Positions 25,066 to 49,849 of a stretch of 64,000 nt of DNA are shown here, in pieces. Made by a program: the position numbers and the translations under genes. How positions within the stretch are numbered: position 1 is the first letter of the stretch; each line of letters opens with the position of its first letter. Origin of the DNA: Holophagales bacterium (GTDB taxonomy: Bacteria; Acidobacteriota; Thermoanaerobaculia; Multivoradales; Multivoraceae). The stretch is taken from assembly GCA_009836625.1 (NCBI GenBank), contig VXVC01000012.1, forward strand, positions 482,847 to 546,846. The letters are read 5' to 3'. The notes under the pieces were generated by a model. That model was not told where the DNA came from. It saw only the letters and a list, made by a program, of their open reading frames with translations, and made no database searches.

Positions 25066-26303
25066 CGCTGTGTCTCCAGGAAGTTGAGATAGTGGGCGTA
25101 CTCGTTCTCGATCTCGGCCCGTGTCGTGCCCATCTGGTCCAGCGAGTACTCGTGGACGCCGTGCTTTCCCCGGCGCTCCTGCTGCAGGAATCGCTCCATG
25201 CGGAGCCGGTCCTCCGGCCGGAGGTCCCAGCCGAAGCGGGCATAGATCACGTCGACGACCGACATCTGGTCCTTGACGAAGTCGTCGAAGAACACGTCGA
25301 CCATCTGTTCCTCGCGGTCGAGCTCCCGGCGGTCTCGCAGGAACCGGGCGAAGTAGTCGGCCCAGGTCAGGAGTTGCTCACGCGCCGTTCGCGGCGTGTC
25401 CTCGTGGTCCGAGTAGAACGACCGCATCGACGAGATCAGGCTCCCGACCGAGGGCACCACGTCGGCCGGGTGGCGATGGGTCACGATGACCCGGGCATCG
25501 GGATAGACCTCGAAGAGAGCCCGCAGCCGCATCAGGTGGACGGGCGACTTCAGCAGCCAGCGACGGGCGGGAACGCCGCCCGACTGCAGGAACTGCAGGA
25601 AGCGCCGGTGCCAGCGCAGGTTCTGCGCCTGGTCGGCCTTCGCGAACCAGTCGAGGTACTCGGGCAGCCAGGCCATGGCGACGTACTGGAAGCTCGTGAA
25701 GTTGAGCGCCGTGATGCCGATGCACTCCTGCGGCGAGTCGGCCGTCATGTAGTGCTTGCGGCGGAAGTCGGGCACGAGCCGGAAGATCTGGTCGAACTCC
25801 TTGCGCACCGTCTCGATGCGCTCGTTGTCCCGGTAGTCGTCCGGATTCGGCGCCGGGTGGGGCAGGAGGCACTCCCAGGACAGCGGCGCCCGGTGGTTTC
25901 GGTCCAGGTGCAGCAGAGCGTGGAGGATCGTCGTCCCGCTCCGCGGCATGCCGACGATGAAGACCGGCGCGCGGACCTCTTCGTCGCCGATCTCGGGGTG
26001 TTCCGAGAGCGCTCGCTCGACTTGGGAGCGCGAGTCGGCCGAACGTTGCACCGTGCCGCGCGCGGCCAGCCGACCGAACGTGCTCAGCCGCGCGTGCGTC
26101 TCGAGCCCGTGCACGAGGCGCTCGACGCCGTCGCGGAATATCGGATCGCGCACCTCGAACCCGCTGGCCCGACGCGCGTTCTCCAGAATCCGCTCGGGCG
26201 TCAGCCTGAAGGGCGTCAGTCCGCAGTGGCCGGCAACCGCTCCGACACGGTTGACGGCCTTGAGCGCGACCGGCTGCCGGATCCGGATCGAAGGGTTCGC
26301 CAA
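25062..26303 (-). CDS. Sulfotransferase-family protein (PAPS-dependent)
   Basis: 5'-PSB motif FIVGMPRSGTTILHALL and a 3'-PB-like THRHPADVVPS. 413 aa. Confidence 0.8.
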   Translation of the reverse strand: MANPSIRIRQPVALKAVNRVGAVAGHCGLTPFRLTPERILENARRASGFEVRDPIFRDGVERLVHGLETHARLSTFGRLAARGTVQRSADSRSQVERALSEHPEIGDEEVRAPVFIVGMPRSGTTILHALLHLDRNHRAPLSWECLLPHPAPNPDDYRDNERIETVRKEFDQIFRLVPDFRRKHYMTADSPQECIGITALNFTSFQYVAMAWLPEYLDWFAKADQAQNLRWHRRFLQFLQSGGVPARRWLLKSPVHLMRLRALFEVYPDARVIVTHRHPADVVPSVGSLISSMRSFYSDHEDTPRTAREQLLTWADYFARFLRDRRELDREEQMVDVFFDDFVKDQMSVVDVIYARFGWDLRPEDRLRMERFLQQERRGKHGVHEYSLDQMGTTRAEIENEYAHYLNFLETQR

Positions 26304-37967: not shown

Positions 37968-39095
37968 CTAGCTCGCCCGCAGCGTTTCCCGCTGCACCGT
38001 CAGCGCCTCGATCCGGTCGCGGTCGACCTCGACGCCGAGGCCGGTGCCGACCGGCACGTCGACCCAGCCGTCGCCGTCCATCGTCCACTCCGGCGACACG
38101 ACATCGCGCGCCCAGTAGCGGTTGCTAGGGCTCACGTCGCCGGGGATCGTGAAGTTCGGCAGGGAAGCCAGGGCGACGTTGTAGGCGCGACCGATGCCGC
38201 TTTCCAGCATGCCGCCGCACCAGACCGGGATGTCGTTCGCCTCGCACAGGTCGTGGATGGCCTTCGAGGCCGTGAACCCGGCGACCCGGCCCGGCTTGAT
38301 GTTGACGATCCGGCCGGCTTGGAGGCGGATCATGTCCTCGGCGCGAGCGATGTTGGTGATCGATTCGTCGAGGCAGACCGGGGTCCGCATCCGTCGCTGG
38401 AGTTCGGCGTGCCGGGCGACGTCGTCCCAGGCCAGGGGCTGTTCGACCATCACCAGGTCGAGGTCGTCTAGTTGGACGAGGTGGTCGGTGTCGTCCAGGG
38501 TGTAGGCGTTGTTCGCGTCGGCCATCAACGGCGCGTCCGGCCCGAGGCGCTCGCGGACGGCGTGCAGGTAGTCGAGGTCCTGGCCGGGCTTGATCTTCAG
38601 TTTGATCTTCCGGTAGCCCTCGGCCAGCGCCTTCTCGGCCTTGTCGGCGAGCTCCGCCGGCGAGCTCTGGATGCCGATCGAAATGCCGGTGCCGATCCGT
38701 TTTCGCGTGCCGCCGAGTAGTGACGAGAGGCTCTGGCCCGCCTTCGTTGCCGCCAGCGCCCAGGCCCCCATCTCGATCGCGGCCTGTGCCATCTCGTGGC
38801 CGCGGAGATCCTCGGACAGGGCGGCTGACACGTCCCGGGGCGTCTCGAAGCGGCGGCCAAGCACCCGCGGCGCCAGCCACTCGCGGATCGCCAGGGTCGC
38901 CGTGTCGATGCTCTCGGGAGAGTAGTTCGGGAAGTCGCCGGCGACACACTCGGACCAGGTCGAGGCCCCGTCCGCGTCGACCAGCTCCAGCAGCAGGATG
39001 CGGCGGGTCGTCGTGACGCCGGACGAGATCCGGAACGGCTCGACCAGGGGCAGTTGGATCTCGCGCAGGGTGATCGAGTCGATCTGAAGGCTCAT
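37968..39095 (-). CDS. Enolase-superfamily enzyme, mandelate racemase/muconate lactonizing (MR/MLE) family (OSBS / N-acylamino-acid racemase-like)
   Basis: The KxK general base (KIKLKIK) and metal ligands (DANNAY, EQP, LDES) are present. The start is ATG at 39095 (MSLQIDSITL), overlapping the upstream gene's stop (ATGA). Confidence 0.8.
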   Translation of the reverse strand: MSLQIDSITLREIQLPLVEPFRISSGVTTTRRILLLELVDADGASTWSECVAGDFPNYSPESIDTATLAIREWLAPRVLGRRFETPRDVSAALSEDLRGHEMAQAAIEMGAWALAATKAGQSLSSLLGGTRKRIGTGISIGIQSSPAELADKAEKALAEGYRKIKLKIKPGQDLDYLHAVRERLGPDAPLMADANNAYTLDDTDHLVQLDDLDLVMVEQPLAWDDVARHAELQRRMRTPVCLDESITNIARAEDMIRLQAGRIVNIKPGRVAGFTASKAIHDLCEANDIPVWCGGMLESGIGRAYNVALASLPNFTIPGDVSPSNRYWARDVVSPEWTMDGDGWVDVPVGTGLGVEVDRDRIEALTVQRETLRAS

Positions 39096-39970
39096 TGCTT
39101 CTCCGTTTCTTCGAGCTTCTCGAGCCGGTAGTAGTAGCGCCGGTTCAGCAACGTGTGGGCGCCGGCGTCCTCGCCGGCATCCGGCTCGGGATCTTCGCGC
39201 CAGGTGAACCCGGTCACTTCGTAGCCAGCCTCCAGGCACTCCTGGAACTGCGCCCGGGTGCGCCGCCGCCAGGCGGAGGCGTGTTCGGGCGCGGAGCGCA
39301 GGATGGAGCCGATGTTCGGCGGCACCTCCACCCAGGCGGTGTCCACCAGCGCCTCGTCGACCGGGCAGGGCGCCGTGTCCCGGGTCGGCCCTGCGGTCGG
39401 GCCGCCCTCCATCAGGCGTTCGACCCGCTCGCTCCCGATCGCCCAGGCGACGATGAAGCGGTCCGTTCCCAGTCCACTGTGCAGGATGCTGCCCGTGTCC
39501 TCGCCGTACATGTCCACGACGTACTCGACCGGCAGCGCGCCGAGCCGGTTCAGGTTGAGGTTCGCGTTCCGGGCGACCAGGGGGTCGTAGGTCCAGTACA
39601 CGGTCTCGACGTCGAGTTCCAGCAGGAGTTCGCGCTGGAACGCCTTGAGCTCGCGACCGAGCCCAAGGCCGCGGGCGTCCCGCGCTACTGCCAGCATGTG
39701 GGACCAGTGGGCCCGCTGCCCGAAGCGGAAGCCGCTCATGCCGTAGATGAAGCCCAGCATCCGGCCGGCCCCGTCGTAGGCGCCGGCGACCACGCCGCCG
39801 ATCTTCTGGGAGATCTTGAGCATCGGCGGCGGCACCGCGTCGTCGAAGCTGTCGCCCCAGGTCTCGCGCTGGAGATCGACGATCGCAGCGTAGTCCTCCT
39901 CGGAACTCGCGTTCCGGAGCTCGATGCCGGAAGCCAGCCGTTTGCGCATGGTGGGCGATCGTACAGCCAC
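39092..39970 (-). CDS. GNAT-like acyltransferase (hypothetical)
   Basis: RARDARGLGLGRELKAFQRELLLE resembles GNAT motif A. Translationally coupled to the downstream MR/MLE gene. Confidence 0.5.
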   Translation of the reverse strand: MAVRSPTMRKRLASGIELRNASSEEDYAAIVDLQRETWGDSFDDAVPPPMLKISQKIGGVVAGAYDGAGRMLGFIYGMSGFRFGQRAHWSHMLAVARDARGLGLGRELKAFQRELLLELDVETVYWTYDPLVARNANLNLNRLGALPVEYVVDMYGEDTGSILHSGLGTDRFIVAWAIGSERVERLMEGGPTAGPTRDTAPCPVDEALVDTAWVEVPPNIGSILRSAPEHASAWRRRTRAQFQECLEAGYEVTGFTWREDPEPDAGEDAGAHTLLNRRYYYRLEKLEETEKQ

Positions 39971-40005: not shown

Positions 40006-41436
40006 CTACCCGACCTCCGCTTCCTGGAACGCCCTCGCCCGGAACAGGAAGTCGATGATGTTCCCTTCGTGCGGCTGCAGCCAGTTGAGCTGAATCGTCG
40101 GCACCGGGCCGAGGTTCAGGCGGTCGACGTGGGTTGCGTCGACCAGTTGGCGTCGCCAGCGCTCGTCACTCGTGATCGCGCTGCACACGAGGGTGTCGCC
40201 AATCGCACTCAGCATCTTCTCTTGCGGGCACTCGACGACGGAGACGAAGGGGAACATGTACTCGACGTTCGCCGCTTCGATGTCGGCGTCGGCGCAGTGG
40301 AGGACGGTCGGCAGCAGGTAGTCGCAGCGCTCGCGTTCGTCGAGCCGTCCGTTTCCCCGCATCTCGGACGTCAGGTCGCGGACGCCGGGAACGTCGACCT
40401 GCCGCTCGATCATGCCGTCGATCGCTTTCGCCATGCCCGGCACGGTGAAGGCGGCGAGCGGTGACTCGGGGTCGTCGGCCGGCTTGGGCAGCACGGGCGC
40501 CAGCCGCTCGGCGAGAGCCTGGGCGATCTCTTCCGTGTGGCGTGAGGCCCAGACGCCGGAACAGGAGATGCAGCTCCGGCCGCTGTTGACCAACACGCTG
40601 TCGACCATCACGTCGAGGTACTGCTCCCAGTCGTCGACCACGTCGTCGCCGAGCAGGATCTTGCTGAATCCGGGGCCGTGCGGCTGGACGCGGGGGTCGT
40701 TCTGGTAGCGGGCGACGGTGTCCGCGCCGCCGAAGATCATGCTGCGCGAGCAGGAGGCGAGAACCGCCGCGCCGATGTCGCCTTCGCCCGGGTAGATGGA
40801 GATGGCTTCGCGTGGCACGCCGGCTTGGGCGAAGGCCTCGGTCATCCGGTAGGGCGTCCACGGTTCCTGCGGTCCGGGCTTGAACACGAGGCCGACCTGG
40901 AGCGGGATGACCGGCATCCACAGCGTGTGCACTCCCGGCGAGTTGGACGGCAGCACCAGGCCGATCACCGGCGCCTGCGCCTGGTAGCTGACCGGCACGC
41001 CGCGCTCTTCGACGCCGTGGCCGCGGGCCAGGATGTCGAGGTCGAGACCGCGGGTCAGGGCCTCCAGGACCTCGCCCATGTTCGTCAGCACGAAGTGGTT
41101 CTTGTCCATGTTCGCCCGGCACATGTGCTCCGGCAGGCCGGTGGTCGCCGACTGGTAGTGGACGAAGTCCTCCGGGGTCTGACTGCCGCTGCCGAGGGGG
41201 AGGTTGGCGTTCAGGTAGAGGTCGGCGGCCTCGATCACCATGGAGATCAGTTCGCTGGACGGGATCTCGCGCAGGATGTCGCGGGCGCGCTGGGCGCGGC
41301 GCATGTCGCGCTGGACCAGGCCGGGGTTGGTCTGGTGCAGCGTGGCCAGCTCGTCGCCGGACTCGAAGTGAACGATCGTCGCCTTCTCGAGCGACTCGTA
41401 GGGCTTGCCCCAACGGATGGCGGGGATGTCGATCAT
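40006..41436 (-). CDS. Aldehyde dehydrogenase family protein
   Basis: 476 aa, Rossmann-like LVLPSNSPGV, and an active-site Cys context GRSCISCSG. Confidence 0.72.
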   Translation of the reverse strand: MIDIPAIRWGKPYESLEKATIVHFESGDELATLHQTNPGLVQRDMRRAQRARDILREIPSSELISMVIEAADLYLNANLPLGSGSQTPEDFVHYQSATTGLPEHMCRANMDKNHFVLTNMGEVLEALTRGLDLDILARGHGVEERGVPVSYQAQAPVIGLVLPSNSPGVHTLWMPVIPLQVGLVFKPGPQEPWTPYRMTEAFAQAGVPREAISIYPGEGDIGAAVLASCSRSMIFGGADTVARYQNDPRVQPHGPGFSKILLGDDVVDDWEQYLDVMVDSVLVNSGRSCISCSGVWASRHTEEIAQALAERLAPVLPKPADDPESPLAAFTVPGMAKAIDGMIERQVDVPGVRDLTSEMRGNGRLDERERCDYLLPTVLHCADADIEAANVEYMFPFVSVVECPQEKMLSAIGDTLVCSAITSDERWRRQLVDATHVDRLNLGPVPTIQLNWLQPHEGNIIDFLFRARAFQEAEVG

Positions 41437-41533
41437 GCTGGTTACCTGTACGCGGCCGGTGGGTGGCCGGAGGATGAATCGAGCGTTATGAAGCGGCGGA
41501 ATGGTAGCACCGGGCTGCTAGCCTTCGCCGGCC

Positions 41534-42097
41534 ATGGAGGACCGTCGCACCGTTCTGAAATCGGCCCTGGCGCTGGGTCTGGGTGTGCGTGGCCTGAACG
41601 TACTGCACGCGCAATCCGACGATCCGCGGAGGGCTCGACCGCGGGAAGGCGACCACTTCGTGTTCGCCTTCGGGCCGCGCCAGGGCCAGACGATCCGGGT
41701 CGACGACGTTCCCCTCGCGAGCAAGCAGCTCATCTGCTACGCGGTGGACCCGTCATCCGGCGCCGTGCGTGACGGCTCGCGCCTCAACCAGGTGCTGCTG
41801 CTGCGCTTCGAGCCCGACTCGTTGACACGGGAGACGCGGGAAGCGTCCGCGGACGGCGTCGTCGCCTACTCGGGCATCTGCCCCCATACCGGCTGCGACA
41901 TCGAGGACTGGTCCGAGGAGGCGGAGTTCCTGGTCTGTTCCTGCCACGAATCGGAGTTCGATCCGCGAGACGGCGCCGAGGTCATCTCGGGCCCGGCTCC
42001 GCGCCGGCTGCCGTCGCTGCCGCTTCGCTCGGAAGAGGGCGTGCTCGTTGCTGCGGGCGCTTTCAGCGCGACGATCCGGTTCGAGAGGGAGTTCTGA
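41534..42097 (+). CDS. Tat-exported Rieske [2Fe-2S] protein
   Basis: Tat-like N-terminus (RRTVLKSALALGLG) and Rieske boxes CPHTGC ... CSCHESEF. Confidence 0.85.
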   Translation: MEDRRTVLKSALALGLGVRGLNVLHAQSDDPRRARPREGDHFVFAFGPRQGQTIRVDDVPLASKQLICYAVDPSSGAVRDGSRLNQVLLLRFEPDSLTRETREASADGVVAYSGICPHTGCDIEDWSEEAEFLVCSCHESEFDPRDGAEVISGPAPRRLPSLPLRSEEGVLVAAGAFSATIRFEREF

Positions 42098-42099
42098 CG

Positions 42100-43815
42100 A
42101 TGATGGATCGGCAAGCAGTTCTGCGACGGACGGTGGCCCTCCTCGTTTTCGTCGCCGCGGTGGCGCCGGCGATCGGCCAGGAACGCGCCTACCGCGCGGT
42201 GACCCAGGAGCGCCTTCTCGCGCCCGAGCCGGAGAACTGGCTGATGTACCGGCGCACCTACGACGGCTGGGGCTACAGCCCGCTCGATCGGATCGACACC
42301 TCGAACGTCGCCTCGCTCGCGCCGGCGTGGACGTTCTCGACCAGCATCAACGAGGGCCACCAGGCGCCGCCGATCGTCAACGACGGGACACTGTTCATCA
42401 CGACGCCGGGGAGCCGCGTGCTGGCGCTGGACGCGCGGTCTGGCGAGTTGCTGTGGCGCTTCGTGCCCGAGCTGCCGGAGGACCTGCAGCAGATGCACCC
42501 GACGAACCGCGGCGTCGCGCTGTGGGGCGACCGGGTCTACGTCGCCACGGTCGATGCGCGCCTCTTCGCGCTCGACGCGCGGACGGGAAGGGTGGCCTGG
42601 GAGACGGCGGTCGAGAACTACGCCCGCGGCTACTACATGACGCTCGCGCCCCTGGCCGTCGAGGGGAAGGTGATGGTCGGCGTGTCAGGAGGGGAGTGGG
42701 GTATCCGCGGTTTCGTCGCCGCCTACGACGCGGCCAGCGGGGACGAACTCTGGAAGACGTACACGATTCCCGGTCCAGGCGAGCCCGGCCATGACAGTTG
42801 GCCCGGCGACACTTGGCGGACCGGCGGCGTGCCGGTCTGGGTCACCGGCACTTACGACCCGGAACTGCGGCTGACCTACTGGGGTACCGGCAACGGCGGC
42901 CCGTGGATGGGCGACGCCCGGCCGGGCGACAACCTCTACGCCACGTCGGTGCTGGCGCTCGACGTCGACACCGGCGAGTTGAGGGCGCACCACCAATACC
43001 ACTGGAACGACAGTTGGGACTGGGACGAGGTCGACCCGCCGCTCCTGATCGACGTGGAGCGCGGCGGCTCGACTCGCAAGGCGCTCGTCCATCCGGGGCG
43101 GAACGCGTATCTCTGGGTGCTCGAGCGGAGCGCCGACGCGATCGACTTCCTGGACGCCACGCCCTTCGTCCACCAGGACGTGTTCACCTCGATCGATCCT
43201 GAAACCGGCCGGCCGGAGTACGACCCGGAGAAGACGCCCGCGACGGGAGAAGGAGCGGTGTTCTGTCCGTCGTGGTCCGGCGCCAAGAACTGGCCTCCGG
43301 CTGCTTATAGCCCGGACACGAAGCTGCTCTACGTCCCGGCCAACGAGAACACGTGCTCCTACCTCGAGGGAGTCGAGGCGGACTATCGGCCCGGGCGCAC
43401 GTTCATGGGCATGGAGGGGCGATTCGTGTCGCGCGAAGGCGCGGAGCACTACGGCGAACTCCAGGCCTGGAACCTCGACACCCGGGAGAAGGTGTGGACG
43501 GTCGAGTTCGAGCGCAAGCTCTGGGGACCGGTGCTGACCACCGGCGGCGGTCTCGTCTTCGCCGGCGGCACGAGCGACCGCTACTTCCGGGCCTTCGACG
43601 CGGCGACGGGCGAACTCCTGTGGCGGCAGCGGACGAACTCGGGCATCAGCGGCGTCCCCACGTCCTTCGAAGTCGACGGCGTGCAGTACATCGCGGTCCA
43701 GTCGGGCTGGGGCGTCGACGCGCAGCGCGGCACGGCTCACCTGGACGGGGCGATCGGCACGAACACCTACGTGCCGCAGGGCGGCGTGCTCTGGGTCTTC
43801 GCGTTGCCTGACTAG
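42100..43815 (+). CDS. PQQ-dependent quinoprotein dehydrogenase (8-bladed beta-propeller, alcohol/methanol dehydrogenase family)
   Basis: Signal peptide. Repeated Trp-docking/PQQ repeats (GTLFITTPGSRVLALDARSGELLWR, RVYVATVDARLFALDARTGRVAWE, RYFRAFDAATGELLWR). 571 aa. Starts 3 nt after the Rieske gene. Confidence 0.88.
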   Translation: MMDRQAVLRRTVALLVFVAAVAPAIGQERAYRAVTQERLLAPEPENWLMYRRTYDGWGYSPLDRIDTSNVASLAPAWTFSTSINEGHQAPPIVNDGTLFITTPGSRVLALDARSGELLWRFVPELPEDLQQMHPTNRGVALWGDRVYVATVDARLFALDARTGRVAWETAVENYARGYYMTLAPLAVEGKVMVGVSGGEWGIRGFVAAYDAASGDELWKTYTIPGPGEPGHDSWPGDTWRTGGVPVWVTGTYDPELRLTYWGTGNGGPWMGDARPGDNLYATSVLALDVDTGELRAHHQYHWNDSWDWDEVDPPLLIDVERGGSTRKALVHPGRNAYLWVLERSADAIDFLDATPFVHQDVFTSIDPETGRPEYDPEKTPATGEGAVFCPSWSGAKNWPPAAYSPDTKLLYVPANENTCSYLEGVEADYRPGRTFMGMEGRFVSREGAEHYGELQAWNLDTREKVWTVEFERKLWGPVLTTGGGLVFAGGTSDRYFRAFDAATGELLWRQRTNSGISGVPTSFEVDGVQYIAVQSGWGVDAQRGTAHLDGAIGTNTYVPQGGVLWVFALPD

Positions 43816-43914
43816 CGGTTCCACCGGGGGAGTCGCCGCGGCGGCTGGTGCTGTAGTCTGCCGCCGCTTCAGGCCGCCGATCACAGCAGGACCTAGCCCG
43901 ATTGGAGTTCGCAG

Positions 43915-45009
43915 ATGGAAGTCGCCAGCGCTGACGCCCAGGCCCAGGCCAGGGAACGACTCGATGCCCACGTTCGGGACATGATGGAGTGGCACTTCAG
44001 CCCGGAGACCGGAACGCCGTTCTGGCTGGACTTCGCCTCGAAGCTCGACTTCGACCCGCGCAGCGACGTCGCCTGCTACGCGGACTTGCGCAAGTTCCCG
44101 CCCTTCGAGGACGAGTGGCTGCGCGGCGGACCGGTGCGGCGCTGGGTGCCGAAGGCGATGGCCGACGATCCGATCTACGTGTTCGAGACCGGAGGCACGA
44201 CGGGTATCCCGAAGAGCCGGGTGGCACTCAACGACTTCCGCACGGACTACGAGCTGTTCAGCGGGAGCCTGCCGGACGAGCACTTCCCGCCGGGTTCCAA
44301 CTGGCTGATGCTGGGGCCGTCGGGTCCGCGCCGCCTGCGTCTGGCGGTGGAGCACCTCTGCCAGTACCGCGGCGGCATCTGCTTCTGCGTCGACCTCGAC
44401 CCGCGCTGGGTGATCAAGCTGATCAAGAAGGGCTGGATGGAGCACCTGGAGGCGTACAAGGACCATGTGATCGACCAGGCGCTGACGGTGCTCTCTGCCG
44501 GTCACGACATCCAGGCCATGTTCGCGACGCCGAAGCTGCTCGAGTCCCTTTGCCTGGCGCTCGAGGACCGCGGCCAGACCCTCGCGGACACCGGGATCAA
44601 GGGCATCTTCTCGGGCGGTACCGAGTTCACGCCGCAATGGACCCGCTTCGCGGTCGAGGAGTTGCTCGACGGCGTCTACATGACGCCCACCTACGGCAAC
44701 ACGCTAATGGGCCTGGCCGCCTCGCGGCCGGTCACGGCCGGCGACGGCTACACGATCGCCTACTACGCGCCGCAGCCGCGGGCCGTACTCGAGGTCGTCG
44801 ACCCCGACGACCCGGACCAGGTCGTCGACTACGGCGCCACCGGCCGCGTCCGGCTGACGACGCTCACCCGCGAGTTCTTCGTCCCCGGCTTCCTCGAGCG
44901 CGACGAGGGCGAGCGGGAGCAACCCTACGTCGACTATCCCTGGGATGGCGTCAGCGGCGTGCGGCCGTTCGCGAGGCTGGCCTCGGCGACGACGGTCGGG
45001 GTGTACTAG
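43915..45009 (+). CDS. Putative adenylate-forming enzyme (PaaK / F390-synthetase-like), hypothetical
   Basis: FETGGTTGIPKS resembles the [ST]SGTTGxPK AMP-binding P-loop of PaaK-like ligases. 364 aa. Confidence 0.45.
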   Translation: MEVASADAQAQARERLDAHVRDMMEWHFSPETGTPFWLDFASKLDFDPRSDVACYADLRKFPPFEDEWLRGGPVRRWVPKAMADDPIYVFETGGTTGIPKSRVALNDFRTDYELFSGSLPDEHFPPGSNWLMLGPSGPRRLRLAVEHLCQYRGGICFCVDLDPRWVIKLIKKGWMEHLEAYKDHVIDQALTVLSAGHDIQAMFATPKLLESLCLALEDRGQTLADTGIKGIFSGGTEFTPQWTRFAVEELLDGVYMTPTYGNTLMGLAASRPVTAGDGYTIAYYAPQPRAVLEVVDPDDPDQVVDYGATGRVRLTTLTREFFVPGFLERDEGEREQPYVDYPWDGVSGVRPFARLASATTVGVY

Positions 45010-45019
45010 GAGTCTCCCG

Positions 45020-45628
45020 CTAGGGCGCGGCGCGGTTGCGGTAGAGCGCCGGATCGACCACCTCGGCCATCGCCCTTTCGTTGAGGCCGTCCACGAGACG
45101 GGCGATGCGCGTGGCCGCCGCGGCCGGCTCGCGCAGCGCCTCGCCGTACTCGATCTCGATCCACTCGAACTGCGGCGCGTGGCGGAGAAGGTAGTTCACC
45201 CGCCAGAGCTGGTCCTGCCACAGTTCCATCATCCGCTCGTCCGGCGTGTCGTCGGTCTCGCCCCGGCGGTCCAGCATCTTGCGTTGCGAGGCCAGCACCT
45301 CCCCGAGGTCGCGGCGCATCAGGATGACCCTGTAGTTCAGGTTCGGCGGCAGGTCCTTGAGCAGGAAGGAGATGACCTTGACCGCGCGGCCGCGTGAGGC
45401 GCGGAGCCAGGATTTGTCGGGAGCGGTCGCGAGGTCCTTGACCCGCTCGTCCTCGTAGTAGCCGCGCGGGTTGTCCACGTCGGCCTCGCGCTCGCCGTCG
45501 GTCACGATCTCCATGCCGCCGGCCTCGAGCATCTTCATCGCCATCGAGGTGCCGGAGCGGGGGAGACCGGAAACGACGACGATGGGCCGGCCGTAGCGGA
45601 ATCGTCTCCAGAGTGTTCTGGCGCTCAT
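45020..45628 (-). CDS. Small sulfotransferase-like protein (Stf0-like PAPS-binding P-loop)
   Basis: IVVVSGLPRSGTSM (5'-PSB) and a downstream RRD...S. Start at the internal ATG (MSARTLWRRFRYGRP). Confidence 0.62.
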   Translation of the reverse strand: MSARTLWRRFRYGRPIVVVSGLPRSGTSMAMKMLEAGGMEIVTDGEREADVDNPRGYYEDERVKDLATAPDKSWLRASRGRAVKVISFLLKDLPPNLNYRVILMRRDLGEVLASQRKMLDRRGETDDTPDERMMELWQDQLWRVNYLLRHAPQFEWIEIEYGEALREPAAAATRIARLVDGLNERAMAEVVDPALYRNRAAP

Positions 45629-45725
45629 GGCGAAGGGGATGCTACCCCCGGCTTGGTATGCTCCGCGGCGCTTCGCGAGCCGCCGCACTCCTGCGCTCGG
45701 GCGGCGCCAGCACTTGGAGAAACCG

Positions 45726-47852
45726 TTGCCAGCTCAGCGTCTCGTAACCGTCGCGCTGGCGCTTCTGGCGGCGCTCTTCGCCGCCGCGCCGGCGGCCGCC
45801 TACATCGGTCCGGGGGCGGGGTTCGCGCTCATGTCGTCGTTCCTGGTGCTGCTGGCGACGGTGGCGCTGGCCTTCCTCTCGCTGCTCGCGTGGCCGGTTC
45901 GGACCCTGTGGCGGGTCGTGCGGCGCAAGAAGCCGCCGAAGGCGCACGTCAGGCGGCTCGTGTTCGTCGGACTCGACGGTCAGGACCCGCGGTTGACGGA
46001 GCGGATGATGAAGGAGGGCAAGCTGCCCAACTTCAAGCGTCTCAGCAAGCAGGGGAGCTATCGCCGGATCGCCAGTACGTATCCCGCGCTGTCCCCGGTT
46101 GCCTGGTCGACCTTCGCGACCGGCGCCAATCCGGGCAAGCACAACATCTTCGACTTCCTGGACCGCGACCTCCGAAGCTACCTGCCGAAGCTGTCGTCGG
46201 CCCACATCGGTCGCGTGGAGCGCTTCCTGAAGCTGGGCAAGTGGAAGATCCCGCTGCAGAAGCCGGAGATTCGCATGCTGCGGCGGTCGAAGCCGTTCTG
46301 GACCGTGCTCGGCGAGCGGAACGTCTGGAGCACCGTGCTGCGGGTGCCGATCACCTTTCCGCCGGATCGGTTCTACGGCGCGCAACTGGCGGCGATGTGC
46401 GTGCCGGACCTGGTGGGCAGTCAGGGCACCTTCCTGCTCTACACGACGCGTCCGGCGAGGGACGCGATCCGGGAGGGGGGCGTGCGCGTGCCGCTGAGTT
46501 CCAACGGTTCCGGCCCCGACCACTTCGACTGCGTGGTCGAGGGGCCCGAGAACAGCTTCCTGGAGGGCGATCCGCCGCCTCCTCTCCGCGCGCCGATGAC
46601 GATCGAAGTAGACCGCGAGGAGAAGACCGCGACGGTCAGCGTGGCGGGAGAGACGGTGGACCTCCAGCAGGGACAGCTCTCCGACTGGGTGCGTCTCGAG
46701 TTCCGGGCCGCGCCCGGGATCAAGGTCCACGGCCTGACCCGGATGCTGCTGACGGAAGCCGCCGAGCACACATCGCTCTACCTGACCGCGATCCACATCG
46801 ACCCCGAGAAGCCCGCGATGCCGATCTCGCACCCGTCCTACTACGCCCCGTACCTGGCGAAGCGGGTCGGCGACTTCGCGACTCTGGGCCTGGCCGAGGA
46901 CACGACGGCTCTGAACGAGGGAGTGACCGACGACGCGACCTTCCTCCGGCAGTCCTACGACATCGACCGCGAGCGCGAGGAGATGTTCTTCGCCGCGCTC
47001 GAGCGACTGCGCAAGGGCTCCCTGACCTGCGTCTTCGACGCCACCGACCGGATCCAGCACATGTTCTGGCGCTACATGGAAGACGGACACCCGGCTGCGA
47101 ACGGCCGCAAGACGGGCAAGCAGCGCCGGACGATCGAGGAGCACTACCGGCACAACGACGCCCTGGTCGGCCGGGTGATGGAGAAGCTGGCCGACGACGA
47201 CCTGCTCATCGTCCTCTCGGACCACGGCTTCGCCTCCTTCCGGCGAGGCGTGAACCTGAACCGATGGCTTCTCGACCACGGCTACCTGGTGTTGCGCGAG
47301 GACGCGGACGGCACGGAGGAGTGGCTGGAGGGTGTGGACTGGACGCGCACCCGGGCCTACGCGCTCGGTCTCGCCGGCGTGTTCTTGAATCTCAGGGGCC
47401 GCGAGGCGGGTGGCATCGTCGAGCCCGGCGAGGAGGCGCGGGCGCTCAAACGCGAACTGATCGCCGCCTGGGACGGTCTGCGCGACGAGGAGCGAAGCGC
47501 GGTCGGCATCAACGCCGCCTTCGACGCCGAGGATCTGTACACCGGTCCCTACAAGGGGAACGCCCCCGACCTGATCGTCGGCTACAACGACGGCTACCGG
47601 GTGTCCTGGGACTGCGCCGTCGGCGTGGTCGCGGGCCCGGTCTTCTCCGACAACACGAAGGCCTGGAGCGGCGACCACTGTGTCGACCCGCGGCTGGTCC
47701 CGGGCATCTTCTTCAGCAGCCGCCCGGTCGACCGCGACGACGACCTGTCGCTACTCGACATGGCGCCCACCGCGCTGGCCCTGTTCGGCATCGACAAGCC
47801 GGACTACATGGAGGGAGAGTCGGTGTTCGACCCAGCGGGAATGGCGGCGTGA
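45726..47852 (+). CDS. Alkaline-phosphatase-superfamily enzyme, nucleotide pyrophosphatase/phosphodiesterase (NPP)-like, membrane-anchored (paralog 1)
   Basis: TTG start 6 nt after GGAGA, which leaves a divergent intergenic region. The first in-frame start at 45627 would abut the sulfotransferase start. N-terminal TM helices. NPP-type core LVFVGLDGQDPRL...LPNFKRL...YPALSPVAWSTFATGANPGKHNIFDF and VLSDHGF. Confidence 0.72.
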   Translation: MPAQRLVTVALALLAALFAAAPAAAYIGPGAGFALMSSFLVLLATVALAFLSLLAWPVRTLWRVVRRKKPPKAHVRRLVFVGLDGQDPRLTERMMKEGKLPNFKRLSKQGSYRRIASTYPALSPVAWSTFATGANPGKHNIFDFLDRDLRSYLPKLSSAHIGRVERFLKLGKWKIPLQKPEIRMLRRSKPFWTVLGERNVWSTVLRVPITFPPDRFYGAQLAAMCVPDLVGSQGTFLLYTTRPARDAIREGGVRVPLSSNGSGPDHFDCVVEGPENSFLEGDPPPPLRAPMTIEVDREEKTATVSVAGETVDLQQGQLSDWVRLEFRAAPGIKVHGLTRMLLTEAAEHTSLYLTAIHIDPEKPAMPISHPSYYAPYLAKRVGDFATLGLAEDTTALNEGVTDDATFLRQSYDIDREREEMFFAALERLRKGSLTCVFDATDRIQHMFWRYMEDGHPAANGRKTGKQRRTIEEHYRHNDALVGRVMEKLADDDLLIVLSDHGFASFRRGVNLNRWLLDHGYLVLREDADGTEEWLEGVDWTRTRAYALGLAGVFLNLRGREAGGIVEPGEEARALKRELIAAWDGLRDEERSAVGINAAFDAEDLYTGPYKGNAPDLIVGYNDGYRVSWDCAVGVVAGPVFSDNTKAWSGDHCVDPRLVPGIFFSSRPVDRDDDLSLLDMAPTALALFGIDKPDYMEGESVFDPAGMAA

Positions 47853-49849
47853 AGCGGCCCCTCCTGGCAGCGGCGGCGCTCGTCCCGGTCGTCCTGGCGA
47901 TCGGGTGCGGCGGCGGTGGCGTCGGCCCGTCCGAGGGGCCGAAGGTCATCGTGCTCGGCTTCGACGGCCTGGACCCTGAGCTCACCAGGCAGTTGATCGA
48001 CGAAGGGAGGCTGCCGAACTTCGCCCGGCTCGAGGCGATGGGTGGCTTCACGGAGCTGGAGACGACGATCCCGCCGCACAGCCCGGTGGCCTGGTCGAGC
48101 TTCGTCACCGGCATGGACCCGGGCGGCCACGGCATCTTCGACTTCCTGCACCGGGACCCGGAGACGATGATCCCGTACTCGTCGACGGCCGCGGCGTCCT
48201 CCGGCGGACGTTTCCTGGAGGTGGGACCCTGGCAGTTTCCGCTCACCAGCGGGGACTACGTGCAGTTCCGGCACGGCACGCCGTTCTGGGAGGTGCTGGA
48301 GGAGCACGGCGTGCGCACGACCGTCGTCCGCATGCCGGCGAACTTCCCGGTCTCGGGCACGGCCAGCCGCGAACTCTCGGGCATGGGCACGAGCGACCTC
48401 CTCGGCACCGACGGCACCTTCACCTTCTACACCTCGGAGCTGTTCGCGGACCGGGACATCAGCGGCGGCGACATCGTCGAGCTCGACATCTACGACAACG
48501 TGGTCGAGGCCGAGTTGCTCGGACCCGACAACCCGCTGCTGCGGGAGCCGGTCAAGCTGACCGCGCCATTCACCGTCTACCTCGATCCGGAGACGGAGAG
48601 CGCCAAGATCGAGTTGGGCGACCAGCAGATCGTGCTCCGGGTGGGGGAGTGGAGCGACTGGCTGGAGGTCGACTTCGAGATGATGCCGACCCAGCACCTG
48701 CGCGGCATCTGCCGGATGTACCTGCGCGCGCTCGAGCCGGAGTTCGAGCTCTACGTCAGCCCGATCGACCACGATCCGATGTCGCCCGCGGCGCCGATCT
48801 CGACGCCGCCCGACTTCGCGGCCGAGCTGGCGGAGGCGGTCGACCGCTTCTACACGGAGGGGATGCCCGAGGACACGAAAACCCTGACGGAGGGCGTCTT
48901 TACCCCGGAGGAGTTCCTGGTCCAGGCCAGGATCGCCGGCGACGAGGTCGCCGAGCAGTACGGCTACGTGCTGGACCGCTACCTGGAACAGCAGGGAGGC
49001 TTCCTGTTCTACTATTTCGGCAACGTGGATCAGATCGGCCACGTCCGCTGGCGGTCGCGCGATCCGGAGCACCCCGTCTACGACCCGGAAGTCGACGCCG
49101 TGCACGAGGACCTGATCCCGACGCTCTACGAGGGACTCGACGCGGTCGTCGGGCAGACGCTGGACCGGCTCGGGGCCGAAGCCGGCCTCGGCGACGGCGA
49201 CGCGGACGAACCGCTGCTGATCGTCATGTCGGACCACGGCTTCGCCTCCTGGCGCCGCGCCTTTCACCTGAACGCCTGGCTCGCCGAGAAGGGCTACCTG
49301 ACGGCGAGAAACCCGGACCCCTACGCGGACGAGGGTTTCCTGCTGAACGTCGACTGGGACGAGACCCGGGCCTACGGGATCGGCTTCTCGGGTCTCTACG
49401 TCAACCTGCGCGGCCGCGAGCGCGACGGCACGGTGACGGCGGCGGAGCGCCTCGATCTGGTCCGGGAGCTGAAGCGGGAACTGCTGGCGGTCGTCGATCC
49501 GGAGACGGGCGAACCCGCGATCACGGAAGTCCACCTTCGCGAGGACTACGCCTTCCAGGGACAGACAGCGATCGGTCCCGACCTCGTCGTCGGCTACGCG
49601 AAGGGCTACCGGGGGGCGACGGAATCGGCGTCGGGCGAGGTCGTGGGTGAGGTCTTCAGCGACAACGACAGCGCCTGGAGCGGCGATCACATGATGGACC
49701 ACCGGACCGTGCCCGGCGTGCTCCTGGTCAGCCGTCCGCTCGGCCGTCCCGCTCGGGGCATCGTCGACCTGGCGGCCTCGATTCTGGCCGAGTACGGCGT
49801 GGAAGAGTTCCCGCCGCTTCAGGGCGGCGCGGCGACGGGCTCGCCCTGA
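47849..49849 (+). CDS. Alkaline-phosphatase-superfamily NPP-like lipoprotein (paralog 2)
   Basis: GTG start overlapping the paralog-1 stop (GTGA). Lipobox LAIGCGGGG. Colinear with paralog 1 (VIVLGFDGLDPEL...LPNFARL...HSPVAWSSFVTGMDPGGHGIFDF, VMSDHGF, WSGDH). Confidence 0.75.
   Translation: MKRPLLAAAALVPVVLAIGCGGGGVGPSEGPKVIVLGFDGLDPELTRQLIDEGRLPNFARLEAMGGFTELETTIPPHSPVAWSSFVTGMDPGGHGIFDFLHRDPETMIPYSSTAAASSGGRFLEVGPWQFPLTSGDYVQFRHGTPFWEVLEEHGVRTTVVRMPANFPVSGTASRELSGMGTSDLLGTDGTFTFYTSELFADRDISGGDIVELDIYDNVVEAELLGPDNPLLREPVKLTAPFTVYLDPETESAKIELGDQQIVLRVGEWSDWLEVDFEMMPTQHLRGICRMYLRALEPEFELYVSPIDHDPMSPAAPISTPPDFAAELAEAVDRFYTEGMPEDTKTLTEGVFTPEEFLVQARIAGDEVAEQYGYVLDRYLEQQGGFLFYYFGNVDQIGHVRWRSRDPEHPVYDPEVDAVHEDLIPTLYEGLDAVVGQTLDRLGAEAGLGDGDADEPLLIVMSDHGFASWRRAFHLNAWLAEKGYLTARNPDPYADEGFLLNVDWDETRAYGIGFSGLYVNLRGRERDGTVTAAERLDLVRELKRELLAVVDPETGEPAITEVHLREDYAFQGQTAIGPDLVVGYAKGYRGATESASGEVVGEVFSDNDSAWSGDHMMDHRTVPGVLLVSRPLGRPARGIVDLAASILAEYGVEEFPPLQGGAATGSP

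What the first reader, a model, noticed from the sequence alone, without database searches (positions are those of the whole stretch)
41534..43815. Tat-exported soluble Rieske [2Fe-2S] protein immediately upstream (3-nt gap) of a PQQ quinoprotein dehydrogenase
PQQ alcohol/methanol dehydrogenases normally pass electrons to c-type cytochromes or cupredoxins. Here the only redox partner encoded in the apparent two-gene operon is a periplasmic Rieske protein (CPHTGC/CSCHESEF) with a twin-arginine leader. This suggests an atypical electron-acceptor pairing, or a Rieske-dependent hydroxylating partner. An aldehyde dehydrogenase lies divergently upstream, consistent with an alcohol-to-acid route.
Basis: partly seen in the sequence, partly recalled or inferred. 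Interest (0 to 1): 0.5.

Follow-up and report, generated by a model that had tools for sequence, protein, structure and literature searches.

The report
Rieske protein paired with PQQ dehydrogenase
A secreted iron-sulfur (Rieske) protein gene sits directly in front of a PQQ alcohol-dehydrogenase gene, and the pair is kept together across many bacterial phyla in an uncharacterized enzyme clade that lacks the usual cysteine pair, so the Rieske protein probably replaces cytochrome c as the enzyme's electron acceptor.

Summary
A 187-aa Rieske [2Fe-2S] protein with a twin-arginine leader (41534-42097) ends 2 nt, not 3, before a 571-aa methanol/ethanol-family PQQ dehydrogenase (42100-43815).

The pairing is not chance:
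- 77 of 80 genomes holding a Rieske relative have the dehydrogenase directly downstream, across Acidobacteriota, Rokubacteria/Methylomirabilota, Binatia and Proteobacteria.
- 54 of 69 informative metagenome loci found with the dehydrogenase have the Rieske directly upstream.
- The median intergenic gap is 5 nt, and the pair is inherited and duplicated as a unit.

The Rieske is the respiratory, disulfide-bearing bc/AioB type (38% identical to the Thermus Rieske), not an oxygenase ferredoxin. The dehydrogenase keeps its PQQ and metal ligands and the lanthanide-type Asp (WDWDE). It has lost the hallmark vicinal Cys-Cys, which is replaced by M/L-His-Pro. No c-type cytochrome gene lies in the 64-kb window or near 39 of 42 distant loci.

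The clade includes Adh4 and Adh6 of Methylobacterium aquaticum 22A ("PQQ-ADH type 6a", published as uncharacterized). Both are preceded by a Rieske gene that no paper I found mentions.

Best reading (about 0.6): the Rieske is the enzyme's dedicated periplasmic electron acceptor. The neighbouring "aldehyde dehydrogenase" is lineage-specific context.

The parts
41534..42097 (+). Gene for a 187-aa periplasmic Rieske [2Fe-2S] protein of the bc/AioB type
   Evidence: ORF. Pfam Rieske 35.7 bits. Thermus Rieske 1NYK/3FOU E 1e-35 over residues 33-181. AF2 model pLDDT 88, TM 0.91 and rmsd 1.8 A to 1NYK.
41534..41614 (+). Twin-arginine (Tat) signal peptide, residues 1-27 (DRRTVLK ... LHAQ|S)
   Evidence: RR is invariant in 15 diverse homologues, followed by a short hydrophobic stretch and an AxA/AQ-type site. 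This segment is a low-confidence N-terminal helix in the model. Cleavage is inferred, not shown.
41879..41896 (+). Cluster-binding box I, CPHTGC (C116, H118 ligands; C121 disulfide)
   Evidence: Invariant columns in the family alignment; coordinates checked.
41936..41953 (+). Cluster-binding box II, CSCHES (C135, H138 ligands; C137 disulfide; S140)
   Evidence: Invariant or nearly invariant columns; coordinates checked.
41990..42001 (+). GPAP 'Pro loop' typical of bc-type Rieske proteins
   Evidence: G153, P154 and A155 invariant, P156 nearly invariant; coordinates checked.
42083..42091 (+). Shine-Dalgarno-like GAGAGGGAG inside the 3' end of the Rieske gene, 8 nt before the dehydrogenase ATG
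   Evidence: Read directly from the sequence. Short gaps are the rule in other loci: median 5 nt, 66/80 at or below 60 nt.
42100..43815 (+). Gene for a 571-aa periplasmic PQQ-dependent dehydrogenase, methanol/ethanol family, Cys-Cys-less 'type 6a' clade
   Evidence: TIGR03075 572.7 bits against cut-off 480. Best solved relative is PedH 6ZCV/6ZCW at 366 bits. 56% and 48% identical to M. aquaticum Adh4 and Adh6.
42100..42177 (+). Sec-type signal peptide of the dehydrogenase, residues 1-26
   Evidence: Hydrophobic N-termini ending in A-x-A/AQ, followed by conserved Y-x-P-V-T, in orthologues from all phyla.
42484..42516 (+). LQQMHPTNRGV: the site where other family members carry the vicinal Cys-Cys; here M132-H133-P134, one residue shorter
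   Evidence: Alignment to PedH. Same replacement in all Rieske-linked orthologues, in 118/120 closest database homologues and in all 80 metagenome loci.
42688..42702 (+). GGEWG with metal ligand E199
   Evidence: Aligned to PedH and conserved in the clade.
42883..42900 (+). GTGNGG with metal ligand N265
43015..43029 (+). WDWDE: catalytic D307 and the extra D309 diagnostic of lanthanide-dependent enzymes
   Evidence: Aligned to PedH WDFDG. Invariant in the clade alignment. Ca-type WDWA occurs in Adh6, Alteromonas and Paracoccus relatives.

Best explanation
The two genes form a conserved bicistronic periplasmic redox module. The dehydrogenase is exported by Sec. It is predicted to bind PQQ and a lanthanide ion, and it oxidises a still unknown alcohol, aldehyde or sugar-type substrate. 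The Rieske protein is exported folded, with its [2Fe-2S] cluster, by Tat, and its leader is probably cleaved. It takes the electrons from enzyme-bound PQQH2 one at a time, in the place where other quinoprotein dehydrogenases use a c-type cytochrome. It then passes them to a carrier or oxidase encoded elsewhere.

Shown:
- Gene integrity.
- Domain identities and the active-site and cluster-ligand signatures.
- The export signals.
- Conserved adjacency across phyla, inheritance of the pair as a unit, and absence of a nearby cytochrome c gene.
- Loss of the Cys-Cys.

Inferred:
- That the electrons go from PQQH2 to the Rieske cluster.
- That the Rieske potential is high enough.
- That the loss of the Cys-Cys is linked to the change of acceptor.
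- That the metal is a lanthanide.
- What re-oxidises the Rieske protein.
For: Linkage:
- From the Rieske side, the dehydrogenase lies directly downstream in 77/80 species genomes, with Rieske identity down to 45% and dehydrogenase identity 56-75%. These include Rokubacteria, Binatia, Burkholderiales and Delta- and Gammaproteobacteria.
- From the dehydrogenase side, 3/4 look-ups and 54/69 informative metagenome loci have the Rieske upstream.
- No other gene family is conserved around the pair.
- Median gap 5 nt.
- One Rokubacteria MAG has two divergent pairs (Rieske 56%, dehydrogenase 62% identical), and each pair clusters with the same foreign loci for both proteins. Distance matrices correlate: r = 0.68, Mantel p = 0.001.
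- Cultured carriers are Roseomonas marmotae, Alteromonas macleodii, Paracoccus yeei and M. aquaticum 22A, which has two pairs.

Same compartment:
- Tat RR leader on the Rieske and Sec leader on the dehydrogenase.

Rieske type:
- Both cluster boxes with the disulfide cysteines and GPAP.
- Nearest relatives are respiratory Rieske proteins and AioB. From established knowledge, these are positive-potential one-electron acceptors, and the bc-type ones oxidise quinols.

No alternative acceptor:
- No CxxCH, cytochrome b or oxidase gene in the window.
- None within +-4 kb in 39/42 distant loci.

Contrast with neighbouring clades:
- The nearest clades, at 52% identity or less, keep the Cys-Cys and often carry fused cytochrome c domains.
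- Paralogues in the same loci that are not next to a Rieske mostly keep the Cys-Cys.
Against: - There is no biochemical or structural evidence of contact. No natural Rieske-dehydrogenase fusion was found among the listed homologues: the top 120 Rieske hits, the top 120 dehydrogenase hits and the 150 best representatives.
- 15/69 informative relatives of the dehydrogenase and P0237 lack an adjacent Rieske although they also lack the Cys-Cys. So Cys-Cys loss and Rieske adjacency are not strictly coupled.
- One clade member (P0242) appears fused to a beta-propeller plus a cytochrome c domain. One Rieske exception (L069) sits next to a PedF-like cytochrome c. Cytochrome c may therefore still be part of the chain.
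- Adjacent genes co-diverge whatever their function, so the mirror-tree result is weak evidence.
- In the paper's text, growth on methanol or ethanol is reported only for other single-gene-remaining strains. Nothing is reported for the adh4-only or adh6-only strains, so no substrate is known.
Confidence: 0.6

Rival explanations
1. The Rieske protein is a stable small subunit or maturation/maintenance partner of the dehydrogenase. It might stabilise it, poise its redox state or reactivate it. The bulk electron flow would go to a c-type cytochrome or another carrier encoded elsewhere.
For: - Conserved adjacency is equally explained.
- A PedF-like cytochrome c lies beside the Rieske in L069.
- A cytochrome c domain is fused to a clade member in P0242.
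- Some Cys-Cys-less relatives have no adjacent Rieske.
Against: - A high-potential respiratory-type Rieske with exposed cluster loops is an electron-transfer module. No non-redox role is known for this type (established knowledge).
- No cytochrome c gene is conserved near the pair.
Confidence: 0.17
2. The Rieske protein links the dehydrogenase to a further periplasmic enzyme, or works in the opposite direction. It might shuttle electrons between the PQQ enzyme and a molybdenum aldehyde oxidoreductase, or donate electrons to the PQQ enzyme. It would then not feed the respiratory chain.
For: 2Fe-2S plus molybdopterin (IorAB-like) genes follow or precede the pair in Roseomonas marmotae and in about 6 of 42 distant loci.
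Against: - These genes are absent from the window and from most loci.
- Quinoprotein dehydrogenases of this family are known only as oxidising enzymes (established knowledge).
Confidence: 0.1
3. The Rieske gene encodes the iron-sulfur subunit of the organism's respiratory bc-type complex and lies next to the dehydrogenase by chance.
For: The best HMM and structure matches are bc-complex Rieske subunits.
Against: - No cytochrome b or c1 gene is in the window.
- The N-terminus looks like a cleavable Tat signal with an A-x-A site rather than a membrane anchor.
- The score to the QcrA model is 90 bits against a cut-off of 275.
- The adjacency holds in 77/80 genomes of several phyla.
Confidence: 0.03
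4. The Rieske protein is the ferredoxin or oxygenase component of a hydroxylating system that acts on the same substrate as the dehydrogenase.
For: Only the presence of a Rieske domain.
Against: - No mononuclear-iron catalytic domain, reductase or oxygenase gene is nearby.
- The protein is Tat-exported to the periplasm, where NAD(P)H-dependent Rieske oxygenase systems do not operate (established knowledge).
- It has the disulfide-bearing respiratory-type boxes, and an oxygenase ferredoxin appears only at rank 40 of the fold search.
Confidence: 0.03

Closest known systems
PQQ-ADH 'type 6a' (Keltjens classification), e.g. Adh4 (Maq22A_1p32165) and Adh6 (Maq22A_1p30675) of Methylobacterium aquaticum 22A
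   Same: - 56% and 48% identity to the window enzyme.
- Same His-x-Thr-Asn-Arg-Gly motif in place of the Cys-Cys.
- Both genes are directly preceded by a homologous Rieske gene. Gene identity was confirmed by mapping the published deletion primers.
- The family is stated in the literature to be uncharacterized (PMC7356819).
   Different: - Adh6 has the Ca-type WDWA instead of the lanthanide-type WDWDE.
- The papers that name the type do not mention the Rieske gene.
Lanthanide-dependent ethanol dehydrogenase PedH (Pseudomonas putida, PDB 6ZCV/6ZCW) and the XoxF methanol dehydrogenases
   Same: - Eight-bladed PQQ propeller family; PedH is the best solved relative at 366 bits.
- Same metal ligands Glu, Asn and Asp plus the extra lanthanide Asp.
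- Same PQQ-contact residues and the distal disulfide (C389, C419).
   Different: - PedH and XoxF carry the vicinal Cys-Cys and hand electrons to a c-type cytochrome (PedF, XoxG).
- Here the Cys-Cys is replaced by Met-His-Pro, and the neighbouring gene encodes a Rieske protein instead.
Arsenite oxidase AioAB
   Same: A periplasmic oxidising enzyme whose immediate electron acceptor is a Tat-exported, high-potential Rieske protein that then reduces a soluble cytochrome c or azurin. AioB is among the sequence and fold matches.
   Different: - The catalytic partner there is a molybdopterin/[3Fe-4S] subunit without its own signal peptide. Here it is a PQQ propeller with its own Sec signal.
- The AioB model scores 42.6 bits against a cut-off of 95.65.
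Respiratory Rieske subunit of bc complexes (Thermus thermophilus Rieske, PDB 1NYK; actinobacterial QcrA)
   Same: - 38% identity, TM 0.91, rmsd 1.8 A to 1NYK.
- Cluster boxes, disulfide cysteines and GPAP loop.
- These proteins are natural oxidants of quinols, and PQQH2 is a quinol.
   Different: - No cytochrome b partner, and no convincing membrane anchor.
- It is encoded with a soluble dehydrogenase.
Quinohemoprotein (type II) alcohol dehydrogenases and N-terminally cytochrome-c-fused PQQ dehydrogenases
   Same: The PQQ enzyme carries its own dedicated one-electron acceptor. These are the nearest outgroups at 52% identity or less.
   Different: The acceptor there is a fused haem c domain and the Cys-Cys is kept. 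Here it is a separate Rieske protein and the Cys-Cys is lost.

Membership tests
PQQ-dependent dehydrogenase, methanol/ethanol family (TIGR03075) | Family HMM above the curated cut-off; eight-bladed PQQ propeller | tested here: met
   572.7 bits against cut-off 480; Pfam PQQ 279.7 bits.
PQQ-dependent dehydrogenase, methanol/ethanol family (TIGR03075) | Metal ligands (Glu, Asn), catalytic Asp and PQQ-contact residues | tested here: met
   E199, N265, D307, R137, W247, R334, N397 and W475 align with PedH and are invariant or nearly so in the clade.
PQQ-dependent dehydrogenase, methanol/ethanol family (TIGR03075) | Vicinal Cys-Cys disulfide next to PQQ | tested here: not met
   Replaced by M132-H133-P134, one residue shorter. 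The same holds in all orthologues.
PQQ-dependent dehydrogenase, methanol/ethanol family (TIGR03075) | Dedicated c-type cytochrome acceptor encoded with the enzyme | tested here: not met
   No CxxCH gene in the window or near 39/42 distant loci.
PQQ-dependent dehydrogenase, methanol/ethanol family (TIGR03075) | Bound PQQ and dye- or acceptor-linked dehydrogenase activity | not testable with these tools
   Needs purified protein. No pqq biosynthesis genes are in the window, and the rest of the genome was not searched.
Lanthanide-dependent PQQ dehydrogenases (XoxF/PedH/ExaF type) | Additional Asp two residues after the catalytic Asp (D-x-D) | tested here: met
   WDWDE, with D307 and D309. This is a sequence signature only; metal content is not testable here.
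PQQ-ADH type 6a (Keltjens 2014, as applied in PMC7356819) | Groups with the named members Adh4 and Adh6 of M. aquaticum 22A | tested here: inconclusive
   56% and 48% identity, with a shared motif and a shared Rieske neighbour. No tree was built with the original reference set, and the defining review was not available.
High-potential bc/AioB-type Rieske proteins | CxHxGC and CxCH boxes with the two extra disulfide cysteines; Pro loop; Rieske fold | tested here: met
   CPHTGC, CSCHES and GPAP. Model TM 0.91 to 1NYK.
High-potential bc/AioB-type Rieske proteins | Positive midpoint potential | not testable with these tools
   Inferred only from the presence of the disulfide and of Ser140. Phe142 replaces the Tyr of bc1 proteins.
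Cytochrome bc complex Rieske subunit (QcrA/PetA) | Equivalog HMM above cut-off; encoded with cytochrome b; N-terminal membrane anchor | tested here: not met
   NF050121 90 bits against 275; TIGR01416 30.8 bits against 97.4. No cytochrome b in the window. The short leader has an A-x-A site.
Arsenite oxidase small subunit AioB (TIGR02694) | Equivalog HMM above cut-off; molybdopterin large subunit adjacent | tested here: not met
   42.6 bits against 95.65. The neighbour is a PQQ enzyme.
Rieske non-haem iron oxygenase systems | Rieske domain fused to, or encoded with, a mononuclear-iron catalytic domain and a reductase; cytoplasmic | tested here: not met
   187-aa single-domain protein with a Tat leader. 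No oxygenase or reductase genes nearby. An oxygenase ferredoxin first appears at rank 40 in the fold search.

The most novel reading that the evidence does not exclude
A widespread class of quinoprotein dehydrogenases has gone unrecognized. Relatives of the Rieske protein occur in 464 species-level genomes, in marine, soil and host-associated bacteria. These enzymes would use a dedicated Tat-exported, bc-type Rieske iron-sulfur protein, not a cytochrome c, cupredoxin or quinone, as primary electron acceptor. The Rieske tip would oxidise enzyme-bound PQQH2 much as the bc1 Rieske oxidises ubiquinol, and replacement of the hallmark Cys-Cys by Met/Leu-His-Pro would be the structural mark of this switch. 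It would be the first iron-sulfur redox partner of a PQQ enzyme, and it would assign a function to the uncharacterized 'type 6a' clade's gene pair.
Probability: 0.5. Interest if true: 0.8.

Novelty: new variant of a known kind. Interest (0 to 1): 0.68.

Why it matters
- All characterized PQQ alcohol, methanol and sugar dehydrogenases pass electrons to c-type cytochromes, cupredoxins, cytochrome b562 or ubiquinone. A Rieske acceptor would add a new type of electron exit to quinoprotein biochemistry.
- The vicinal Cys-Cys is treated as a hallmark of the family. Its role is a long-standing question in the field (my own recollection, not checked here), and a whole natural clade without it is a ready-made test case.
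- These genes are currently auto-annotated as 'alcohol dehydrogenase (cytochrome c)'. That annotation may mislead metabolic reconstructions of sponge symbionts, soil Acidobacteria, Rokubacteria and marine bacteria, in which lanthanide-type PQQ enzymes are abundant (PMC11996626).
- The hypothesis can be tested at once. Methylobacterium aquaticum 22A carries two such pairs, one lanthanide-type and one calcium-type, and deletion and single-gene-remaining strains already exist (PMC7356819).

Tried and rejected
- **Natural fusions.** I looked for Rieske-dehydrogenase fusions as a Rosetta-stone test. None was found among the top 120 Rieske hits, the top 120 dehydrogenase hits or the 150 best representatives. 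The long proteins carry cytochrome c domains instead.
- **A third conserved gene.** I clustered all ORFs around 42 distant loci to find a cytochrome c, XoxJ-like protein or transporter. Nothing beyond the pair is conserved. IorAB-like genes occur in about 6 loci.
- **Complex modelling.** This was not possible. The structure tool takes one chain of window or database origin, and I did not submit an artificial fusion. Only the Rieske monomer was modelled.
- **Promoter and terminator scan** of 41300-44100: no hits, which is uninformative in a 69% GC genome.
- **Literature.** Full-text searches for Rieske with PQQ, quinoprotein or lanthanide gave no relevant paper. The Keltjens 2014 review that defines type 6a is not held.
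- **LuxC/LuxE idea.** I considered this from gene lengths for the flanking ALDH-like and AMP-binding-like genes. Pfam did not report those families at E <= 0.01, and the PDB search pointed to EhpF instead.
- **Exceptions.** The two Rieske-side exceptions with sequence downstream (L053, L069) have no dehydrogenase in the sequence held (about 10 kb either side in L053, 3.7 kb downstream in L069). They lie next to YncE/TIGR03866-like beta-propellers scoring below cut-off. L063 ends at the contig edge.
- **Rieske-less relatives.** The 15 Rieske-less relatives of the dehydrogenase share no substitute partner. An upstream CxxCH-containing ORF in L114 is a TPR protein.
Full report
**1. What is in the window**

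The window is about 69% GC. The same locus occurs in sponge-metagenome MAGs (GCA_009844385.1 and others). Close relatives are named Candidatus Multivorans / Thermoanaerobaculia, phylum Acidobacteriota.

Two intact ORFs lie on the + strand:
- A 187-aa protein at 41534-42097.
- A 571-aa protein at 42100-43815.

The first stop (TGA, 42095-42097) is separated from the second ATG by 2 nt, not 3. A Shine-Dalgarno-like GAGAGGGAG lies within the end of the first gene.

**2. The Rieske protein**

- It matches Pfam Rieske.
- Its strongest NCBIfam hits are all below the equivalog cut-offs: the actinobacterial bc1 Rieske subunit, the arsenite-oxidase small subunit and other respiratory Rieske proteins.
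- Against solved structures, the best match is the Thermus thermophilus respiratory Rieske protein (1NYK/3FOU, E 1e-35, residues 33-181). QcrA and AioB follow.
- An AF2 model (pLDDT 88) superposes on 1NYK with TM 0.91 and rmsd 1.8 A. An oxygenase-type Rieske ferredoxin first appears at rank 40.
- The alignment of 15 diverse homologues has these invariant features: the twin arginines (DRRTVLK); both cluster boxes with the extra disulfide cysteines (C116-P-H118-T-G-C121 and C135-S-C137-H138); and G153, P154 and A155 of the GPAP loop, with P156 nearly invariant.
- The leader is short and ends in an A-x-A/AQ-type site in most homologues. I therefore infer a cleaved Tat signal and a soluble periplasmic protein.

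**3. The dehydrogenase**

- It passes the curated cut-off of the methanol/ethanol PQQ-dehydrogenase family (572.7 against 480 bits).
- Its closest solved relative is the lanthanide-dependent PedH.
- The alignment to PedH and a clade alignment show conserved metal ligands (E199, N265), the catalytic D307, the additional lanthanide-diagnostic D309 (WDWDE), the PQQ-contact residues and the distal disulfide.
- The vicinal Cys-Cys that marks this enzyme family is absent. PedH reads P-C-C-D-V-I-N-R-G where the window enzyme reads Q-M-H-P-T-N-R-G, one residue shorter.
- The N-terminus is a Sec-type signal peptide, as in the orthologues.

**4. Is the adjacency more than chance?**

Starting from the Rieske protein:
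- There are 1160 database homologues and relatives in 464 species-representative genomes.
- In the 80 best genome loci the dehydrogenase lies directly downstream in 77. Rieske identity goes down to 45% and dehydrogenase identity is 56-75%. The taxa are Acidobacteriota, Rokubacteria/Methylomirabilota, Binatia, Burkholderiales and Delta- and Gammaproteobacteria.
- One exception ends at a contig edge. The other two are discussed in section 9.

Starting from the dehydrogenase:
- 3 of 4 looked-up homologues have the Rieske upstream.
- 54 of 69 informative metagenome loci have it upstream.

Further points:
- Clustering all ORFs around 42 distant loci found no third conserved gene.
- The median gap is 5 nt, and 66/80 gaps are at or below 60 nt.
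- One Rokubacteria MAG carries two divergent pairs, and each pair clusters with the same other loci for both proteins. Another contig has a recent duplication of the whole pair.
- The two distance matrices correlate (r = 0.68, Mantel p = 0.001). Any two adjacent genes would be expected to do so.

**5. No cytochrome c nearby, and a clade-wide change at the Cys-Cys site**

- No likely gene of the 64-kb window contains CxxCH. Pfam annotation of the likely genes found no cytochrome b, cytochrome c, oxidase or pqq gene.
- In 39 of 42 distant loci there is no CxxCH ORF within 4 kb of the pair.
- The Cys-Cys replacement is shared by all Rieske-linked orthologues, by 118 of the 120 closest database homologues and by all 80 metagenome loci.
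- Paralogues in the same loci that are not next to a Rieske mostly keep the Cys-Cys.
- In the exhaustive representative search, the His-type motif holds down to about 57% identity. From 52% identity downward, the neighbours carry the Cys-Cys and frequently have N- or C-terminal cytochrome c domains.

**6. Link to known work**

A tblastn against plasmids found cultured carriers:
- Roseomonas marmotae: Rieske, dehydrogenase, then a 2Fe-2S/molybdopterin oxidoreductase.
- Alteromonas macleodii and Paracoccus yeei: the order is dehydrogenase, Rieske, then a small Cys-rich secreted protein, and the active site is the Ca-type WDWA.
- Methylobacterium aquaticum 22A: two pairs on pMaq22A_1p.

Mapping the published deletion primers shows that the two M. 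aquaticum dehydrogenases are adh6 and adh4. Yanpirat et al. place both in 'PQQ-ADH type 6a' and state that this family has not been characterized (PMC7356819). A comparative study notes in passing that the Cys-Cys is missing in some members of that group (PMC8561711). Neither paper mentions the Rieske gene, and no paper in the searched library does. Database annotations call these enzymes 'alcohol dehydrogenase (cytochrome c)'.

**7. Mechanism**

The best-supported reading is a two-component periplasmic dehydrogenase. The PQQ/lanthanide enzyme oxidises its substrate. The Rieske protein accepts the electrons singly and delivers them to a carrier or oxidase encoded elsewhere.

The following rests on established knowledge, not on tests made here:
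- Disulfide-bearing bc-type and AioB-type Rieske centres have positive potentials, roughly +100 to +300 mV. Thermus is about +140 mV.
- The PQQ/PQQH2 couple is near +90 mV, and the usual cytochrome acceptors are near +250 mV. A Rieske acceptor is therefore thermodynamically plausible.
- bc-type Rieske proteins are the natural oxidants of quinols, and PQQH2 is a quinol.
- Arsenite oxidase is a precedent for a periplasmic oxidase whose first acceptor is a Tat-exported Rieske protein.

The steps from PQQH2 to the cluster, the role of H133, and the nature of the downstream acceptor are all inferences.

**8. Caveats**

- 15 of 69 informative relatives, and P0237, lack an adjacent Rieske. They mostly carry variant motifs (H-N/D/R-T-N-R-G or A-H-P-T-N-R-G-A) and share no substitute partner.
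- One representative (P0242) appears fused to a beta-propeller and a cytochrome c domain.
- No Rieske fusion was found.
- No substrate is known.
- Lanthanide dependence is a sequence signature only.

**9. The exceptions**

In L053 and L069 the Rieske gene has no dehydrogenase in the sequence held: about 10 kb either side in L053, and 3.7 kb downstream in L069. In both it follows a YncE/TIGR03866-like beta-propeller ('PQQ-dependent catabolism-associated', below cut-off). In L069 it also follows a PedF-like cytochrome c550 (45.7 bits, below cut-off) and a 3-keto-disaccharide-hydrolase-like protein. This hints, weakly, that a c550-type cytochrome may be the next carrier.

**10. The neighbours in the window**

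- The divergent 'aldehyde dehydrogenase' (40006-41436) matches Pfam Aldedh only weakly, and its PDB matches are weak (best E 9e-11).
- The gene after the dehydrogenase (43915-45009) is clearly EhpF-like (E 2e-42 to 3L2K/3HGU).
- ehpG (ALDH family) and ehpF (AMP-binding) are an adjacent pair in phenazine-modification clusters (PMC11278526).
- Both genes flank the pair only in the Ca. Multivorans lineage, and neither product has a signal peptide.
- They therefore do not support a periplasmic alcohol-to-acid route.

**11. Verdict**

- The interpretation as an atypical electron-acceptor pairing is supported by comparative genomics. It remains biochemically untested.
- The hydroxylase and ALDH-route ideas are not supported.
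- The enzyme clade is already named, but only phylogenetically. The conserved Rieske partner appears undescribed in the literature I could search.
- I rate this a new variant of a known kind, of substantial interest and directly testable in a cultured, genetically tractable organism.

Noticed in passing
window 40006-41436 (-) and 43915-45009 (+): The genes flanking the pair look like an EhpG/EhpF-type couple: an atypical ALDH-family protein and an EhpF-like adenylating enzyme (E 2e-42 to PDB 3L2K). Together they would form a cytoplasmic carboxylate-activation/reduction system. In the Ca. Multivorans lineage they are better conserved (93-99%) than the Rieske gene between them.
   Followed up: partly
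window 21142-22887 (+) and 22884-23993 (+): Overlapping genes for both subunits of a type IIB topoisomerase (Topo VI B and A/Spo11-like). To my knowledge this is uncommon in bacteria.
   Followed up: no
window 37968-39239 (-) and 39092-39970 (-): An enolase-superfamily OSBS/N-acylamino-acid-racemase-type gene (TIGR01928, 312 bits) lies immediately downstream of a GNAT acyltransferase-like gene; their longest ORFs overlap, but database gene calls show only a 4-nt overlap. The arrangement suggests an N-acyl amino acid racemisation pathway rather than menaquinone synthesis.
   Followed up: no
window 45020-45688 (-), 45627-47852 (+), 47849-49849 (+): A sulfotransferase-like gene lies next to two tandem, overlapping PF01663 (alkaline-phosphatase superfamily phosphodiesterase) genes. 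Another sulfotransferase is at 25062-26303 (-). Sulfated-compound metabolism would fit a sponge symbiont.
   Followed up: no
L069 2968-6006 and L053 8783-10558: These are the two loci where the Rieske homologue has no dehydrogenase. In both it follows a YncE/TIGR03866-like beta-propeller. In L069 it also follows a PedF-like cytochrome c550 and a 3-keto-disaccharide-hydrolase-like protein. This may point to the next electron carrier.
   Followed up: partly
L096 4033-7038 (Alteromonas macleodii pTE101a) and L097 4009-6938 (Paracoccus yeei pYEE2): A variant operon with reversed order: dehydrogenase, Rieske, then a 146-153-aa secreted Cys-rich protein with no Pfam match. The active site is the Ca-type WDWA and the motif is MHNTSRG. 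The small protein is absent from the window and from all other loci.
   Followed up: partly
L098 5653-8343 and L099 9321-11782 (M. aquaticum 22A pMaq22A_1p): The published genes adh6 and adh4 each have an upstream Rieske gene. One pair is Ca-type (WDWAA, FHYTNRG) and one is lanthanide-type (WDWDE, LHPTNRG). This is a natural matched pair for testing metal dependence and acceptor use.
   Followed up: yes
protein P0242 (1075 aa, representative library): A Cys-Cys-less clade member (60% identical) appears fused to an N-terminal beta-propeller-like region and a class I cytochrome c domain. It is either a genuine quinohaemoprotein variant of this clade or a merged gene call. Its genomic context could not be looked up.
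   Followed up: partly
L095 8478-11223 (Roseomonas marmotae) and about 6 of 42 distant loci: 2Fe-2S plus molybdopterin (IorAB/aldehyde-oxidase-like) genes lie next to the pair, without a cytochrome c subunit gene. This suggests a periplasmic alcohol-to-aldehyde-to-acid route in those organisms, possibly sharing the Rieske carrier.
   Followed up: no
metagenome loci L117, L119, L125, L130, L134, L145, L164, L173-L176, L178: Sub-clades of the dehydrogenase without an adjacent Rieske carry variant residues after the His (H-N, H-D or H-R instead of H-P) or the motif A-H-P-T-N-R-G-A. Residue 134 may therefore co-vary with the presence of the partner.
   Followed up: partly
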